From: Nitrospirota bacterium
Lineage (GTDB): Bacteria > Nitrospirota > UBA9217
Direction: 5' to 3'
DNA length: 64,000 nt
Assembly (NCBI GenBank): GCA_963790205.1
Contig: CAWBNQ010000003.1
Coordinates: 608,785 to 672,784 of the forward strand
The position numbers and the translations under genes were made by a program. Below, piece after piece: positions 52,497 to 58,479 of this stretch (position 1 is the stretch's first letter; each line of letters opens with the position of its first letter). Below the pieces are notes generated by a model that saw nothing but the letters and a program-made list of their open reading frames with translations, was not told where the DNA came from and did no database searches.

Positions 52497-52559
52497 AATG
52501 GGGCGGATGCGCGGATGAGCCGCGTGTTTTTCGCGGCGGTCTCGATCCGCTCGTTATGC
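52497..52559 (-). other. attC site (terminal, next to gpsA).
   Basis: GCGGATGAGCCGCG ... CGGCGGTCTCGATCCGCTC-GTTATGC, ending at the stop of the RibD_C-like ORF. Confidence 0.5.
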
Positions 52560-53107
52560 TACCTTCTCGGCTCATACCGCATCGCGACCGCCCCCGAGCC
52601 GAACTCCAGCCGGCTCACGAGCTTCAAGTCGATAGGTTTCGATAGCCCCGCGAACAAGGTCGGCCCATGGCCCGCTAGCCTGGGCTGCACCACGAACTCG
52701 TACTCATCGATCAATCCCAGCTCCGCCAACGCCATCGGGAGCTTCACGCCTCCCAGGAACAGTCCCTTACCTGATTCCTGTTTGAGCTGCTGAACGGCCT
52801 TCCCCAGATCCCCGCGCACGAATTCCGCGTTCCAATCGACCCGGTCCAAGGTGCTCGACACGACGTACTTCTTTGCCGCGTCGATCGTCCTGGCGAAGGG
52901 TTCCATCCAATCGGGCATCTCTCCCGTACGCGTCGGCGACCGAAACGCTGCCTCCATCATTTCATAAGTCACCCGGCCAAAAAGGAGGGCATCGGCCCGG
53001 TTGAGGTTCTCGACCGCGTGGCGATGCAACTCTTCGTCCGGAAAAATTTCCCGGTGATCGCAGCACCCGTCCAATGTGACGTTGATGGAATACCGAAGGG
53101 GTCGCAT
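52559..53107 (-). CDS. Dihydrofolate reductase-family protein (RibD C-terminal domain type).
   Basis: MRPLRYSINVTLDGCCDH ... the typical RibD_C/DHFR-like family start. Flanked by attC sites. Confidence 0.65.
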   Translation of the reverse strand: MRPLRYSINVTLDGCCDHREIFPDEELHRHAVENLNRADALLFGRVTYEMMEAAFRSPTRTGEMPDWMEPFARTIDAAKKYVVSSTLDRVDWNAEFVRGDLGKAVQQLKQESGKGLFLGGVKLPMALAELGLIDEYEFVVQPRLAGHGPTLFAGLSKPIDLKLVSRLEFGSGAVAMRYEPRR

Positions 53108-53136
53108 TACGTAAGAGTACCTCTAATCATAGGTCA

Positions 53137-53195
53137 GCCTAACACGGTGTTGAGGGGCGGTGATTTTCCCGCCCCTCTCGGACACCAAGTTATAT
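53137..53195 (-). other. attC site.
   Basis: GCCTAAC-ACGGTGTTGAGGGGCGG ... CCGCCCCTCTCGGACACC-AA-GTTATAT. The TAA stop of the upstream ORF is embedded. Imperfect stem with extrahelical bases. Confidence 0.75.
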
Positions 53196-53768
53196 CACAC
53201 TCACGAGTAAACGTAATATCCAATAAAGTGTGAATGACGCACCAATGAAAATTAATGTCCAAATTAAAGCGATAAGCCATTTTGATAATTGTACCGTTGG
53301 AATGACGGTGATAATTTTAGCCAAACCATCATCAGACTTTGCATAAGCATTGATTTTATCCCAAGTTGTAGGAGGAAAATATAAATATGAAATGGTAATT
53401 TGTTCTTTCGGAACTAAAACAGGTATAAGTAATTCTCCAGAACCATCATCGTTACGCTCAACGGAATATTTGATCTTTGGGAAAACGGTGATATTAGGTG
53501 GTAAATAATTATGTCCAACTCTGACGTTGTGGGCTGATTTATTCCCGGCATTGCGAAGGATAATGCTATGAGTAAAGACGACGGTCTTTTGAGCATCTTG
53601 AAGAGTAAAAGAAGATATATGGCCTATATAGGAAACGAGTTTTGATCGTGTTTCTGTGTAGTATTTAATAATTGTTCCGAGGAGGAGCGTAATGATTGGA
53701 GAGAGTAATTTAAGAATTTGTTCGGTTGTCATAGAACCTCCCTTATCGTGTCCGCAATGTGGGTCCAT
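53190..53768 (-). CDS. Hypothetical membrane protein (cassette).
   Basis: N- and C-terminal TM helices. AT-rich. Confidence 0.35.
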   Translation of the reverse strand: MDPHCGHDKGGSMTTEQILKLLSPIITLLLGTIIKYYTETRSKLVSYIGHISSFTLQDAQKTVVFTHSIILRNAGNKSAHNVRVGHNYLPPNITVFPKIKYSVERNDDGSGELLIPVLVPKEQITISYLYFPPTTWDKINAYAKSDDGLAKIITVIPTVQLSKWLIALIWTLIFIGASFTLYWILRLLVSVI

Positions 53769-53860
53769 TGTTATGCAAAAAGAAGTAATTTCAAATGACC
53801 CTAATGTAAAAACAACAGATTGCGAATGCCAAAAATGCGGCTGGTCACAATATCACTCAC

Positions 53861-53913
53861 ATATAACGCGCCGGTCACGCGCCGCTTTTTAGCGCGTCGC
53901 TGTGGACCGGCAG
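53861..53913 (-). other. 5' portion of an attC site interrupted by the group II intron.
   Basis: ATATAAC-GCGCCGG ... GCGCGTCGCTGTGGACCGGCAGG matches the attC family consensus up to the core. The intron sequence begins in place of the TT(RRRY) core. Confidence 0.6.
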
Positions 53914-56787: not shown

Positions 56788-56847
56788 GATTAACGCGCGG
56801 GTGAGACGCGCGTATTTTGCGCGTCGTTCTCGACCCGCAGGTTGGGT
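56788..56847 (-). other. attC site.
   Basis: GATTAAC-GCGCGGG ... GACGCGCGT...GCGCGTCG ... CCCGCAG-GTTGGGT. It abuts the TGA stop of ORF 56847..57677. Confidence 0.75.
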
Positions 56848-57677
56848 CATTTGTCGAGTTTCGTTCCGCTCAACCCGTCCTGCGAACTCTTTTTAAAGAT
56901 ATTCATCATTTGCTCGATCATGCCCTTATTATTTTTTGCTTCAACAGTCATAAACTTATATGCCTCGTTTTCTGGATGAATGCTTGTGGAAATTAGCAGT
57001 TCGCTATTACTCTGTGTCAGTTCAGGTGAAAGTTTGAAAAATACTCTGTTCGGATGGCGTCGTTTATCTAACGAAAGAGTTATGCTAATGTTTGGAAATT
57101 GAAGCACCCAGCCATTGACACTTTGGCCGTCTCTTGCGGTATCCATCGGCTTTATTTTCTTTCTATAAGGCAGAAAGAAGGCACTATGCAGCGGGTCTGT
57201 CAGAAAAAAGACAAAAACATCTATATAATCAACAGCGCCACCATTATACAAGTCATTTCTTATTTTTTGCTCATAAAAACTACCGACGGAGAGTGATCGC
57301 ACCTCAAGTTGCTTTGATACACTGACACGCCACAAGACAGATGCAAAGAACTTTCTTAGTTTTGTTTTGTCGATATCGTTGAACACACATAGTTTCGTAT
57401 CTTTAGCGTCCGGGTGTGATACTCGGTCAAAGAGGCCTTGCTTGTCTCTCAATACTTGAATTGCATAAGCATCGAGTGGTTCAAAAATACCATGTTCGCA
57501 ATCCGGACACACAATTTTGTCATCGTAGATTGCTTTCTGTAATCGACGCCCTCTTTCACCCGATGAGTCATAGGTTTCAACCTTTCCCTTAGTTTCAATG
57601 TTACTAAAAAAACCAATGGAGAAGATATGAGCCTTAGCCATTTTATCTTTCTCATTTGTGCACAAGAGACACTTCAT
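56847..57677 (-). CDS. Hypothetical protein with N-terminal CxxC...CxxC/His zinc-finger (possible HNH-like).
   Basis: MKCLLC ... AKAHIFS ... VCPDCEHG. No confident family. Confidence 0.3.
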   Translation of the reverse strand: MKCLLCTNEKDKMAKAHIFSIGFFSNIETKGKVETYDSSGERGRRLQKAIYDDKIVCPDCEHGIFEPLDAYAIQVLRDKQGLFDRVSHPDAKDTKLCVFNDIDKTKLRKFFASVLWRVSVSKQLEVRSLSVGSFYEQKIRNDLYNGGAVDYIDVFVFFLTDPLHSAFFLPYRKKIKPMDTARDGQSVNGWVLQFPNISITLSLDKRRHPNRVFFKLSPELTQSNSELLISTSIHPENEAYKFMTVEAKNNKGMIEQMMNIFKKSSQDGLSGTKLDK

Positions 57678-57681
57678 TTTT

Positions 57682-58164
57682 TTACTGAGGGTTGTATCCT
57701 TTTAAATAATTAGTAACCGCCACATAATTATCCATCCACATCATAGCAAACTGAACAAGTGTCATGGGATTCGGCTCGTCAATACCAATTTGAGTTAACC
57801 ATGCTTTGGCCCAATGAATTCCATTGCCCGAATTCCTCGACTTTAACAACTCGGACACCTGGTCCATTGTCGCTTTTACTTCAATGACAAAAGGATAGCC
57901 CTCCACTATATCGGGAGAGAAGACTATCTTTTCAAGGAACTCCCTAACGTGCCGAAAGTTTGCATTTTTATCTTCTAAAGCAAGAAGTGCCAATAAGACC
58001 AGTGCCAATTTATGAAGCACAACCTTATCTTCAAAAGACGGAGAGAGTACCCAATTTGTATTCAACTTGAACCGAGAGTTTATATCTTTGTTCATGATAA
58101 AGTCGGAGAGAAGTACATCCGCCAAAATATTAGGTTTTATTTTTTTCTTACCGATGTCAAACAT
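57682..58164 (-). CDS. Hypothetical protein (same cassette as 56847..57677; 4-nt gap).
   Basis: 160-aa ORF. No recognised domain. Confidence 0.3.
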   Translation of the reverse strand: MFDIGKKKIKPNILADVLLSDFIMNKDINSRFKLNTNWVLSPSFEDKVVLHKLALVLLALLALEDKNANFRHVREFLEKIVFSPDIVEGYPFVIEVKATMDQVSELLKSRNSGNGIHWAKAWLTQIGIDEPNPMTLVQFAMMWMDNYVAVTNYLKGYNPQ

Positions 58165-58214
58165 AACGTATTTTATGATACCTTTTTTATTATTTGGCTT
58201 AGTCCAATGTTAAG

Positions 58215-58247
58215 GCTTCTTTCTGAACGCTTTATTCAGAAAGAAGC
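58215..58247. repeat. Perfect 13-bp inverted repeat GCTTCTTTCTGAA(n7)TTCAGAAAGAAGC, followed by GTTGGAC.
   Basis: Read directly. Possible degenerate attC or terminator at the cassette-cluster edge. Confidence 0.4.
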
Positions 58248-58479
58248 TGGTTGGACAAAGCCGTTGCGCGCCACGTCGCTATGGGATTTCGAATAATTTT
58301 TCAGTTTAAAGCGAAGTCCGCGGAAACGACATTGGCAGGGGCGTGAGACTTGTTCGGATGAAAAGCGGCGATTCCGGACTGCTCCGCAAGCCCCTTTCGT
58401 AAATGACTATACAGGAAAAAGAGCTTTTGGGCAATAGCGTCTCGTTGCGAAAGACATGGCTGTTTTCGGGGAGTGGGAG

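What the first reader, a model, noticed from the sequence alone, without database searches (positions are those of the whole stretch)
52497..58260. Second cassette cluster without an integrase (CALIN), about 33 kb from the integron, using the same attC family.
There are attC sites at about 52497-52559, 53137-53195 and 56788-56847, plus an intron-interrupted one. They share the RYYYAAC...GCGCGTCG...GTTRRRY architecture and the strand of island 1, but no intI is nearby. This suggests a past inversion or translocation of part of the array, or intI-mediated cassette integration at secondary sites. The cargo includes a RibD_C/DHFR-family gene, a NHL-like secreted protein, and a two-gene unit (zinc-finger protein plus unknown, 56847..58164). 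An IS91-like transposase remnant and a 13-bp perfect inverted repeat mark the right edge.
Basis: partly seen in the sequence, partly recalled or inferred. Interest (0 to 1): 0.65.

Follow-up and report, generated by a model that had tools for sequence, protein, structure and literature searches.

The report
Decayed second integron, integrase stub left
The attC sites are real, but this is the wreck of a second chromosomal integron that lost all but the last eight codons of its integrase gene, so it is an ordinary kind of element with an unusually readable history.

Summary
A covariance model built only from four island-1 attC sites finds four same-strand sites in island 2: 53861-53915 (56.9 bits), 56788-56847 (50.8), 53137-53195 (27.5) and 52502-52559 (26.9). 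Outside the two islands nothing scores better than E 0.65. Across 14 family members, 10 of 19 stem pairs show compensatory changes.

The site at 53861 is split by a canonical group IIC-attC intron (53916-55863). It sits at the GT/T position and points against the cassettes.

The interpretation needs correcting. An integrase trace is present: 58713-58739(+) encodes EVKSPLDF-stop, the exact C-terminus of this IntI clade, and it abuts the stop codon of the GDSL esterase gene. A related metagenomic contig (79% identical GDSL protein) has an intact 486-aa IntI at that position, followed by a first gene.

The stub is fused at 58712/58713 to the last 67 codons of an IS91-family (Y2) transposase. In dozens of metagenomic loci it sits at G|TT of attI or attC sites, like a cassette.

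Island 2 is therefore a CALIN made in place by one deletion. Translocation from island 1 and secondary-site insertion are not supported. It is a new member of a known kind.

The parts
51374..52430 (-). Left flank: gpsA (two ORFs, 51374-51943 and 51984-52379, separated by a 1-nt frameshift) and its conserved promoter. Homology with relatives ends about 50 bp upstream of the start codon.
   Evidence: Pfam NAD_Gly3P_dh_N 3.9e-37. Synteny with larB holds in most of the first 30 related loci listed. The promoter alignment shows TTGACA/TATAAT.
52502..52559 (-). attC S1, the terminal site of the array. It belongs to the same family but lacks the outer R' box (GGCGGAT where xxxAAC is expected on the + strand). 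It is probably dead as a recombination site.
   Evidence: R1 26.9 bits, E 6.6e-5, + (bottom) strand. Fold.
52559..53107 (-). Cassette D gene: RibD_C / dihydrofolate-reductase-like protein (182 aa). Its GC is host-like.
   Evidence: Pfam PF01872 8.3e-12. GC 0.60.
53137..53195 (-). attC S2, intact (top strand ATATAAC ... GTTAGGC).
   Evidence: R1 27.5 bits, E 4.5e-5. DNA fold z = -4.7.
53190..53768 (-). Cassette C gene of unknown function (192 aa ORF). The likely start is 53732, which follows a GGGAGG ribosome-binding site. AT-rich.
   Evidence: ORF list. No Pfam, NCBIfam, PADLOC or PHROG match. GC 0.38.
53861..53915 (-). attC S3, main body. The intron cuts it off from its R'' remainder (TAAAA, 55864-55868). 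It is inactivated as a recombination site while the intron is in place.
   Evidence: R1 56.9 bits. Junction ..CAGGT|GTACGC.
53916..55863 (+). Group IIC-attC intron, 1948 nt. The RT/maturase ORF lies within 54342-55784. Domain V is at about 55803-55836 and domain VI with a bulged A follows. The intron points against the cassettes.
   Evidence: Rfam group-II-D1D4-3 at 128 bits and D1D4-1 at 74 bits. Pfam RVT_1 1.4e-42 plus GIIM. TIGR04416 408.8 bits. Both ends align with introns beside aadA22 and blaIMP-4 in class 1 integrons.
55874..56767 (-). Cassette B gene: beta-propeller (NHL-like) protein with a hydrophobic N-terminus.
   Evidence: Pfam DUF5128 six-bladed beta-propeller 2.8e-5. NCBIfam ScyF NHL 1e-7, far below its cut-off.
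56788..56847 (-). attC S4, intact (top strand ACCCAAC ... GTTAATC).
   Evidence: R1 50.8 bits, E 1.3e-11. Fold.
56847..58164 (-). Cassette A genes. ORF276 (56847-57677) has a CxxC...H...CxxC motif and may be HNH-like. ORF160 (57682-58164) is unknown. The cassette's 5' end is TTGGAC at 58207.
   Evidence: 961 representatives match ORF276 at E<=1e-3. Invariant H17, C57 and C60, with C3 and C6 nearly invariant. Weak HNH_5 match in 3 of 33 members. PHROGs of unknown function.
58196..58262 (-). attC-like terminal hairpin of the IS91/recombinase element: GGCTTTGTCCAAC, a 13-bp perfect stem, a 7-nt loop, then CCTTAACA|TTGGACTAAGCC. Homology with other copies ends at A|TT (58208|58207).
   Evidence: Inverted repeats I1 and I3. 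Fold z = -7.0. Conserved in L085, L090, L091 and about 60 metagenomic loci whose flanks diverge after [A/G]TT. Model R1 does not hit it.
58263..58509 (-). Conserved non-coding 3' region of the IS91/recombinase element, between the transposase stop and the hairpin.
   Evidence: Alignments with L085, L089, L090, L091 and L092. Upstream blocks are shared in the metagenomic copies.
58510..58712 (-). C-terminal 67 codons of an IS91-family (Y2, HUH) transposase, truncated at its 5' side.
   Evidence: Seven homologues at 63-78% identity, three of them with PF04986. tblastn gives 68% identity to residues 34-99 of the L089 transposase C-terminal ORF, ending at 58712. NCBIfam transpos_IS91 positions 310-355 of 356 at E 0.077. 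All eight plasmid hits are IS91 transposases.
58713..58739 (+). intI stub: the last 8 codons plus the stop (EVKSPLDF*) of an integron integrase, abutting the GDSL stop codon.
   Evidence: tblastn. The DNA differs from island-1 intI only at synonymous positions. KExKSPLDF-stop is the C-terminus of nearly all 120 homologues. 21 of 27 nt match the 3' end of the intact intI in L094 at the same position. It is the only other EVKSPLDF* in the six-frame translation.
58740..59261 (-). Right flank: GDSL/SGNH esterase gene. It is the first gene of a block that is syntenic in relatives (thioredoxin-like, ferredoxin, CMD, M28 peptidase).
   Evidence: Pfam Lipase_GDSL_2 1.3e-23. Synteny in L093 and L094.

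Best explanation
Island 2 is what remains of a second chromosomal integron in this uncultured Nitrospirota genome.

Original layout, left to right in window coordinates:
- cassettes on the minus strand;
- attI;
- intI on the plus strand, converging on the GDSL esterase gene.

Inferred history:
1. A 2.6-kb element entered at or near attI, in cassette orientation. It carries a tyrosine recombinase gene, an IS91-type Y2 transposase gene and an attC-like terminal hairpin.
2. A single deletion of about 3.7 kb then removed four things: the 5' four-fifths of the transposase gene, the recombinase gene, attI, and all of intI except its last 8 codons.

What is left is a promoter-less, integrase-less array, a CALIN. 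It holds four cassettes bounded by GC-rich attC sites of the same family as the intI-linked integron 33 kb away.

Predicted state of the sites:
- 53137 and 56788 are intact. They could still be recombined in trans by an active IntI, which would excise the 3.65-kb segment between them.
- 53861 is disabled by a group IIC-attC intron that retrohomed into the folded bottom strand at GT/T.
- 52502 has lost its outer R box and is fused about 70 bp from the gpsA promoter.

Shown: the sites, the intron and its junctions, the stub, the transposase remnant, and the intact arrangement in a related contig. Inferred: the order of events, the single deletion, and any present-day activity.
For: - attC family. 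A model trained on island 1 alone finds the four sites, and nothing else outside the two islands scores better than E 0.65. Covariation is strong. The extra bases lie on the 3' half of the + strand, as expected for bottom strands of minus-strand cassettes (sequence).
- Intron. Rfam, Pfam and NCBIfam all match. The closest plasmid relatives (49-53% identical RT) lie beside aadA22 and blaIMP-4 in class 1 integrons, in the same opposed orientation. Both ends are conserved, giving ..GT|GTACGC...CCCGAT|T... This matches the published TTGT/T site in R'' of the bottom strand (PMC7923331, PMC3001079).
- intI stub. EVKSPLDF-stop lies at 58713-58739(+). This is the signature C-terminus of the clade.
- Positional orthology. 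L094 has GDSL converging on a 486-aa IntI (68% identical to island-1 IntI). The stops are 1 nt apart and an ORF follows it on the cassette side. The window stub matches 21 of 27 nt of that intI 3' end.
- Transposase remnant. Homology begins at 58712, exactly where the stub ends. No nucleotide is left unexplained at the junction.
- Element behaviour elsewhere. The left junction is nearly always G|TTGAAC and the right junction is [A/G]|TT followed by variable sequence. The element sits directly next to a divergent intI in L190 and L140. It is followed by same-family attC arrays, almost all in the matching orientation, in more than 20 loci.
- Composition. Cassettes A-C have GC 0.37-0.40 against flanks of 0.56-0.58.
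Against: - The stub is only 27 nt. Its BLAST E-value within the window is 0.63. The case rests on the exact motif, the stop codon, the position and the orthologous arrangement in L094.
- L094 is a metagenomic contig at 79% GDSL identity, not a sister strain. The closer L093 (86%) has no integrase at that site.
- The distal end is unexplained. Conserved neighbours of gpsA in relatives are absent from the window, so at least one more rearrangement must have happened.
- The source appears to be a 1.09-Mb metagenome-assembled contig. Frameshifts in gpsA and in island-1 intI hint at assembly indels, and I could not check read support for the 58712/58713 junction.
- The official IntegronFinder attC model could not be run.
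Confidence: 0.8

Rival explanations
1. Part of island 1's cassette array was moved 33 kb by translocation or inversion.
For: The attC family and strand are the same as in island 1. A HigBA-like cassette of island 1 (12908-13513) recurs at 83-92% amino-acid identity in a relative's array upstream of gpsA (L016), so cassettes are shared between such arrays.
Against: An intI stub of its own sits at the head of island 2, and it differs from island-1 intI at synonymous sites. Its position matches the intact intI of L094. Apart from the attC sites, islands 1 and 2 share no DNA (self-BLAST). The attC family is clade-wide (L006, L016, L083, L089 and many metagenomic loci), so sharing it does not imply a common array. 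Both islands have the same orientation, which rules out a simple inversion.
Confidence: 0.06
2. The cassettes were inserted by IntI, acting in trans, at a secondary (non-attI) G|TT site upstream of gpsA.
For: The terminal site at 52502 lacks a canonical R' box, as a hybrid junction might. The array abuts a housekeeping promoter. Two relatives (L006, L016) also carry family attC sites upstream of gpsA.
Against: A hybrid junction should keep the G of G|TT followed by target sequence. Here the whole box is replaced (GCGC-ATCCGCC). The head of the array carries an intI stub next to GDSL, which secondary-site insertion does not explain. In L006 and L016 the attC sites lie 6-8 kb from gpsA, not at the same point.
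Confidence: 0.05
3. The juxtapositions (gpsA|array and transposase|intI stub|GDSL) are assembly chimeras of repeated integron sequences in a metagenome-assembled genome.
For: attC sites, the intron and the IS91-like element are all multi-copy repeats, and many metagenomic contigs break at them (matches at positions 41-72 of about a dozen contigs, six of them at 70-90). gpsA and island-1 intI carry frameshifts.
Against: The 58712/58713 junction is not inside a repeat shared by two places in the window. The stub-GDSL junction is colinear with L094. The contig appears to be 1.09 Mb, which suggests long reads spanning 6 kb.
Confidence: 0.06

Closest known systems
CALIN (cluster of attC sites lacking an integron integrase), as defined for IntegronFinder, and proposed to arise from integrons that lost intI
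   Same: There are at least two attC sites less than 4 kb apart, no recognisable integrase ORF nearby, cassettes in one orientation, and low GC in most cassettes. A complete integron with the same attC family lies in the same genome.
   Different: The scar of the integrase loss is still legible here: an 8-codon intI stub fused to a truncated transposase. A related contig carries the intact arrangement. Most CALINs are reported without such a trace.
Group IIC-attC introns (S.ma.I2 and relatives in class 1 integrons)
   Same: The intron sits in the bottom strand at the R'' GT/T position and opposes the cassette genes. It has an RT plus maturase without an endonuclease domain. The 5' GTACGC and 3' ...CCCGAT ends match, and domain V starts with CGC. 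Such introns are already known to occur in CALINs (PMC7923331).
   Different: The RT is only 49-53% identical to the clinical-integron introns (a 55% match lies in a Candidatus Methylocalor plasmid of unchecked context). The host is an environmental Nitrospirota chromosome. IBS1 reads AGGT rather than TTGT.
IS91 / ISCR family rolling-circle elements linked to integrons (ISCR1 in complex class 1 integrons; ISCR28 in sul4 modules, with attC sites reported at its end, PMC12772301)
   Same: The element has a Y2 (PF04986) transposase, lies directly beside integron structures, and has an attC-like structure at the end downstream of the transposase gene.
   Different: The full element also encodes a tyrosine recombinase about 30% identical to IntI (up to 34% to the window's own). 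Its junctions are G|TTGAAC on the left and A|TT on the right, like a cassette. It occupies attI or attC crossover points. Its hairpin has its extra bases on the opposite half from canonical attC sites. Only a 3' remnant is present in this window.
IS1111-attC insertion sequences (an example I recall of mobile elements that target attC; not checked in the literature here)
   Same: Mobile elements specialised to integron recombination sites that can disable them.
   Different: The transposase family is different (DEDD versus Y2 plus tyrosine recombinase). The insertion geometry was not compared here.

Membership tests
attC recombination site | Imperfect palindrome with outer R''/R' boxes (RYYYAAC ... 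GTTRRRY) that pair in the folded strand | tested here: met
   Met for 53137, 56788 and the rejoined 53861 site (AAC...GTT pairs in the folds and the alignments). Not met for 52502, whose outer box is GGCGGAT.
attC recombination site | Structure conserved rather than sequence, shown by compensatory changes in the stem | tested here: met
   10 of 19 pairs change on both sides, 95.7% of cells pair, and the covariation score is 0.449 against 0.132 for shuffles. The alignment was fitted to the model.
attC recombination site | Extrahelical bases on the R''-L'' side of the bottom strand, which set the orientation | tested here: met
   In the family alignment the unpaired G (8 nt before GTT) and the unpaired T/A lie in the 3' half of the + strand. 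That makes + the bottom strand, in agreement with minus-strand ORFs. The comparison with attC(aadA7) spacing is from memory.
attC recombination site | Accepted by the IntegronFinder attC covariance model | not testable with these tools
   That model is not available here. Rfam reported no attC match. A locally built family model was used instead.
attC recombination site | Recombined by an integron integrase | not testable with these tools
   This needs an excision or integration assay.
CALIN | At least two attC sites within 4 kb of each other | tested here: met
   Sites lie at 52502, 53137, 53861 and 56788, plus the hairpin at 58196. The largest gap is 2.9 kb and contains the intron.
CALIN | No integron integrase gene within 4 kb | tested here: met
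   tblastn with IntI finds only the 27-nt stub near island 2. The nearest intI ORF is at 17929-19378.
Complete integron | intI gene with the integron-specific profile, adjacent attI, and at least one attC | tested here: not met
   Island 2 has no intI ORF and no attI. Island 1 has one: TIGR02249 scores 301.7 bits against a cut-off of 265 for ORF 18566-19378, although the gene is split by a frameshift.
Group IIC-attC intron | Group II ribozyme domains and an RT/maturase without an endonuclease domain | tested here: met
   Rfam D1-D4 models. RVT_1 plus GIIM only. TIGR04416 at 408.8 bits against a cut-off of 300. Domains V and VI were read from the sequence.
Group IIC-attC intron | Inserted after the attC bottom-strand hairpin at TTGT/T in R'', opposite to the cassette genes | tested here: met
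   The junctions are CAGGT|intron|TAAAA and the intron is on the + strand against minus-strand cassettes. The consensus comes from PMC7923331 and PMC3001079.
Group IIC-attC intron | RT falls in the monophyletic IIC-attC lineage | tested here: inconclusive
   The two plasmid matches inspected (49-53% identical) are integron-borne introns beside aadA22 and blaIMP-4. The top plasmid hit (55%, Candidatus Methylocalor) was not inspected, and no phylogeny with other IIC introns was made.
Integron integrase (for the stub) | Clade-specific C-terminus KExKSPLDF followed by a stop | tested here: met
   EVKSPLDF* at 58713-58739. The motif ends nearly all 120 homologues.
Integron integrase (for the stub) | Catalytic RHRY residues and the IntI-specific additional domain | tested here: not met
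   Everything upstream of the last 8 codons is absent. The + frame upstream shows no IntI similarity.
IS91 family (Y2 HUH transposase) | Transposase with Zn_Tnp_IS91 and Y2_Tnp domains | tested here: inconclusive
   The window keeps only the last 67 residues. Homologues and the full copy in L089 carry PF14319 and PF04986.
IS91 family (Y2 HUH transposase) | oriIS and terIS ends with a GTTC/CTTG target, moved by rolling circle | not tested
   The junctions look like G|TT site-specific recombination instead. Canonical ori and ter motifs were not compared.

The most novel reading that the evidence does not exclude
The 2.6-kb module behaves as a self-contained cassette-like parasite of integrons. 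It consists of an IntI-like tyrosine recombinase, an IS91-type Y2 transposase and a terminal hairpin.

- It enters at the G|TT crossover of attI or attC in cassette orientation.
- It leaves a G|TTGAAC left junction and an A|TT right junction.
- It is then followed by ordinary cassettes.
- By sitting between intI and the array it promotes deletions that kill intI, which would turn integrons into CALINs.

The hairpin's asymmetry is the reverse of canonical attC. That could mean it is handled by the element's own recombinase or on the other strand.
Probability: 0.4. Interest if true: 0.65.

Novelty: new member of a known kind. Interest (0 to 1): 0.42.

Why it matters
CALINs are common, but how they arise is mostly inferred from statistics. 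This locus gives a worked example. A CALIN can be traced base by base to an integron that lost its integrase in one deletion, and a related contig still shows the intact state.

The locus also shows three different mobile elements that use folded single-stranded sites converging on one array: cassettes, a group IIC-attC intron and an IS91-type element.

The side observation could matter more than the CALIN itself. If the IS91/recombinase element really targets attI and attC crossover points, it would be an integron-specific parasite that shapes array decay in environmental bacteria.

No step of the integron mechanism is changed by any of this.

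Tried and rejected
- The bare motif GCGCGTCG is not enriched in the window (121 matches against 115 expected). It is useless as a test on its own.
- Pfam found nothing for the 76-aa remnant. The IS91 call needed NCBIfam, tblastn and a homologue search.
- I first read the hairpin at 58203-58256 as a possible fifth attC. I then read it as a plain IS end, because its upstream 300 nt is conserved with the transposase in every copy. 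I ended with 'attC-like end of a cassette-like element' after seeing the junction rules. Model R1 does not detect it, and its asymmetry is non-canonical.
- A possible attC remnant at 58262-58290 (CGTCGCT) was rejected. It has no model score and belongs to the conserved IS 3' region.
- The idea that the stub comes from the IS element's own recombinase was rejected. That protein ends ..KVVSPLDLDSQPVSPTYHL and lies on the same strand as the transposase, whereas the stub is on the opposite strand and ends exactly like IntI.
- No attI similarity was found between L094, L083, island 1 and island 2.
- Exact-sequence look-ups of the window's own GDSL and IntI proteins returned nothing.
- The single-sequence AlphaFold model of ORF276 was unusable (pLDDT 33), and a profile search of PDB sequences found nothing.
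- PADLOC found no defence-system match above noise for the island-2 ORFs.
- The genes downstream of GDSL in L093 match nothing in the window or in the gpsA loci. The distal join to gpsA therefore stays unexplained.

Full report
**1. What is in the sequence**

The region lies between gpsA and a GDSL esterase gene. gpsA is on the minus strand with its start at 52379, and GDSL occupies 58740-59261, also on the minus strand. All plausible cassette ORFs are on the minus strand:
- RibD_C, 52559-53107;
- an unknown 192-aa ORF, 53190-53768;
- a beta-propeller protein, 55874-56767;
- ORF276, 56847-57677;
- ORF160, 57682-58164.

GC is 0.37-0.40 in three cassettes, against 0.56-0.58 in the flanks. The RibD_C cassette is host-like at 0.60. 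No tRNA gene is present.

**2. Are the attC sites real?**

I built a covariance model (R1) from four island-1 sites only, with a hand-drawn hairpin as its structure. I then scanned the whole window on both strands with the filters off.

Besides its own training sites, the model found four sites in island 2, all on the + strand.

| Site | Coordinates | Bits | E-value |
|---|---|---|---|
| S3 | 53861-53921 | 56.9 | 2e-13 |
| S4 | 56788-56847 | 50.8 | 1e-11 |
| S2 | 53137-53195 | 27.5 | 4.5e-5 |
| S1 | 52502-52559 | 26.9 | 6.6e-5 |

It also found two weak extra sites in island 1 (10425-10477 and 13830-13890). Outside the two islands nothing scored better than E 0.65.

The + strands fold into hairpins whose outer AAC...GTT boxes pair. 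I aligned 14 family members from the window and from related loci. Of the cells, 95.7% pair, and 10 of 19 pairs show changes on both sides. The covariation score is 0.449, against 0.132 for shuffles (0 of 500 reach it) and at most 0.092 for slid controls. The alignment was fitted to the model, which favours the structure somewhat.

The unpaired G and T/A lie in the 3' half of the + strand. That makes + the recombining bottom strand, as expected for minus-strand cassettes.

- Only S3 and S4 contain the literal GCGCGTCG.
- S1 lacks its outer box.
- The 8-mer alone is not enriched in the window.

**3. The intron**

Rfam finds two group II D1-D4 models at 54003-54415. The ORF within 54342-55784 has RVT_1 and GIIM domains and matches TIGR04416 at 408.8 bits.

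The plasmid-borne relatives I inspected (49-53% identical) are annotated ltrA genes. They lie directly beside aadA22 and blaIMP-4 cassettes of class 1 integrons and oppose them.

Aligning the ends with those introns fixes the boundaries at 53916 (GTACGC...) and 55863 (...CCCGAT). The exon junction is CAGGT|TAAAA. That is the GT/T position of the published TTGT/T target in R'' of the bottom strand, with the published opposed orientation (PMC7923331 and PMC3001079). Such introns are already reported in CALINs.

While the intron is in place, S3 cannot form its R box.

**4. Whose genome, and what do relatives show at the gpsA end?**

LarB is 88% identical to proteins of uncultured Nitrospirota MAGs. 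gpsA-larB synteny is conserved in most of the first 30 related loci listed. Homology stops about 50 bp upstream of the gpsA start, just past a TTGACA/TATAAT promoter.

Most relatives share conserved genes upstream of gpsA. These genes are absent from the window.

Two relatives (L006 and L016) carry same-family attC sites 6-8 kb upstream of gpsA in the same orientation. L016 also carries a HigBA-like cassette that is 83-92% identical to an island-1 cassette. The attC family and some cassettes therefore circulate across the clade. How the array came to abut gpsA is not resolved.

**5. The right edge: an integrase stub**

tblastn with island-1 IntI gave a short hit at 58704-58736(+). The sequence 58713-58739 reads EVKSPLDF-stop. 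It differs from island-1 intI DNA only at synonymous positions.

Nearly all of the 120 closest IntI homologues end in KExKSPLDF-stop. In the six-frame translation of the window this string occurs only at intI and here. Its stop codon directly abuts the stop codon of GDSL.

The decisive comparison is L094, a metagenomic contig whose GDSL protein is 79% identical.
- It has the same M28-CMD-ferredoxin-thioredoxin-GDSL order.
- GDSL is followed by a convergent 486-aa IntI, 68% identical to island 1's and ending EAKSPLDF-stop.
- The two stops are 1 nt apart, and an ORF follows the integrase on the side where cassettes belong.
- The window stub matches 21 of 27 nt of that 3' end.

L093 (86% identical GDSL) has the same synteny but no integrase. 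The integron at this locus is therefore variably present.

**6. The right edge: the IS91-type remnant and the hairpin**

The minus-strand peptide at 58510-58712 has seven homologues at 63-78% identity, three of them with Pfam Y2_Tnp. NCBIfam and plasmid tblastn point weakly to the C-terminus of IS91 transposases.

A full copy (L089) encodes a 286-aa tyrosine recombinase, 34% identical to IntI. Behind it is a Zn_Tnp_IS91/Y2_Tnp transposase. Window homology begins at residue 34 of that transposase's C-terminal ORF, which is base 58712. That is the base next to the intI stub.

The two genes are divergent and both have lost their 5' parts. This is what a single deletion between them would leave.

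A metagenome scan with the sequence just before the hairpin returned 99 stretches. They show the following:
- Homology always ends at [A/G]|TT. After that the flanks differ, and the examples I read through show a new ORF starting a few tens of bases later.
- The element's other end is nearly always G|TTGAACTAAGCC, which is the inverse of GGCTTAGTYCAAC before the hairpin.
- Two loci show the joined form ...AACA|TTGAAC.
- In L190 and L140 a divergent intI lies next to the left end.
- In L145 the left end follows a family attC exactly.
- More than 20 loci have same-family attC arrays downstream, almost all in the matching orientation.

The element therefore sits at integron crossover points like a cassette, and its hairpin acts as its attC-like end. 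Two things do not fit a canonical attC: R1 does not score it, and its extra bases are on the opposite half.

**7. Most likely history**

The starting state was an integron at the GDSL locus, with intI converging on GDSL and cassettes on the minus strand. The IS91/recombinase element then entered at or near attI. One deletion of about 3.7 kb removed most of the transposase gene, the recombinase gene, attI and intI down to its last 8 codons.

The result is a CALIN. At its far end the last attC lost its outer box and now lies about 70 bp from the gpsA promoter.

Only S2 and S4 look competent. An active IntI supplied in trans could excise the segment between them. Island-1 intI is a bona fide integron integrase (TIGR02249, 301.7 bits), but it is split by a frameshift that may or may not be an assembly error.

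**8. Rivals**

- Translocation from island 1 is disfavoured by the separate, diverged stub and by L094.
- Secondary-site insertion does not explain the stub or the shape of S1.
- An assembly chimera cannot be excluded without reads. It is unlikely, given the colinearity with L094.

**9. Cargo**

- The RibD_C call is solid.
- The beta-propeller/NHL call is weak.
- ORF276 belongs to a large family of about 250-aa proteins (961 representatives). H17, C57 and C60 are invariant, C3 and C6 nearly so, and the family has faint HNH_5 similarity.
- ORF160 and ORF192 have no matches.
- No known defence system is recognised in island 2.

**10. Verdict**

The finding is real and the label CALIN is right. 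Both the object and the intron are of known kinds. The added value is the reconstructed origin, and the IS91/recombinase element that behaves like a cassette.

Noticed in passing
window 58196-58712; loci L085-L193: A 2.6-kb element is widespread in metagenomes (99 stretches). It carries a tyrosine recombinase, an IS91-type Y2 transposase and a terminal hairpin. Its junctions are G|TTGAAC on the left and [A/G]|TT on the right. It often lies next to intI or at the head of attC arrays. A published note that attC sites occur at the end of ISCR28 (PMC12772301) may be related.
   Followed up: partly
window 58196-58207: The 12 bases after the hairpin's A|TT point (TTGGACTAAGCC, minus strand) are 11 of 12 identical to the element's own left end (TTGAACTAAGCC). 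Other copies have unrelated flanks there. It could be a vestige of a tandem or circular junction, or the intact R' of the site. Unexplained.
   Followed up: partly
window 17929-19378: Island-1 intI is split into two ORFs (223 and 270 aa) by a frameshift near 18595 that is not in a long homopolymer. The clade has an N-terminal extension of roughly 170 aa: most full-length homologues listed are about 440-473 aa, and L094's is 486 aa. A related integron (L083) also has a split intI (224 + 244 aa).
   Followed up: partly
window 51943-51996: gpsA, normally essential, carries a 1-nt insertion relative to relatives (a 52-nt gap against 51 nt). Together with the intI frameshift this hints at indel errors in the assembly.
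   Followed up: partly
window 10425-11604: An RsgA/YjeQ-like GTPase ORF (10477-11547) lies between a weak attC-like site (10425-10477, 22 bits) and attC A (11552-11604). A housekeeping-type gene may therefore be packaged as the last cassette of island 1.
   Followed up: no
window 14615-17416: The integrase-proximal part of island 1 has no family attC for 3.3 kb. It encodes a SIR2-like protein and a HEPN/Hypoth_Ymh protein (PADLOC Aga_HEPN 3e-20, PD-Lambda-3_B 1e-17), plus a DUF3825 protein. This may be a multi-gene defence cassette.
   Followed up: partly
window 13830-13976: Extra weak attC-model hits on both strands lie just before attC C (13830-13890 on +, 13924-13976 on -). They suggest nested or duplicated attC fragments.
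   Followed up: no
window 53692-53892 (+): A 66-aa ORF with two CxxC pairs (zinc-ribbon-like) runs against the cassettes. It overlaps the 5' end of ORF192 and runs into attC S3. It may be a reverse-oriented small gene or it may be spurious.
   Followed up: no
L016 5049-5675 versus window 12908-13513: A HigB/HigA-like toxin-antitoxin cassette of island 1 recurs at 83-92% amino-acid identity in a relative's array upstream of gpsA. That array also holds a fragment of a related intron RT (73% identical).
   Followed up: partly
L085-L088 8001-8297: In another genome the same element has an internal deletion. It fuses the N-terminus of its recombinase to the C-terminus of its transposase, giving a 98-aa ORF near gidB-parAB. 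The element evidently decays by internal deletions repeatedly.
   Followed up: partly
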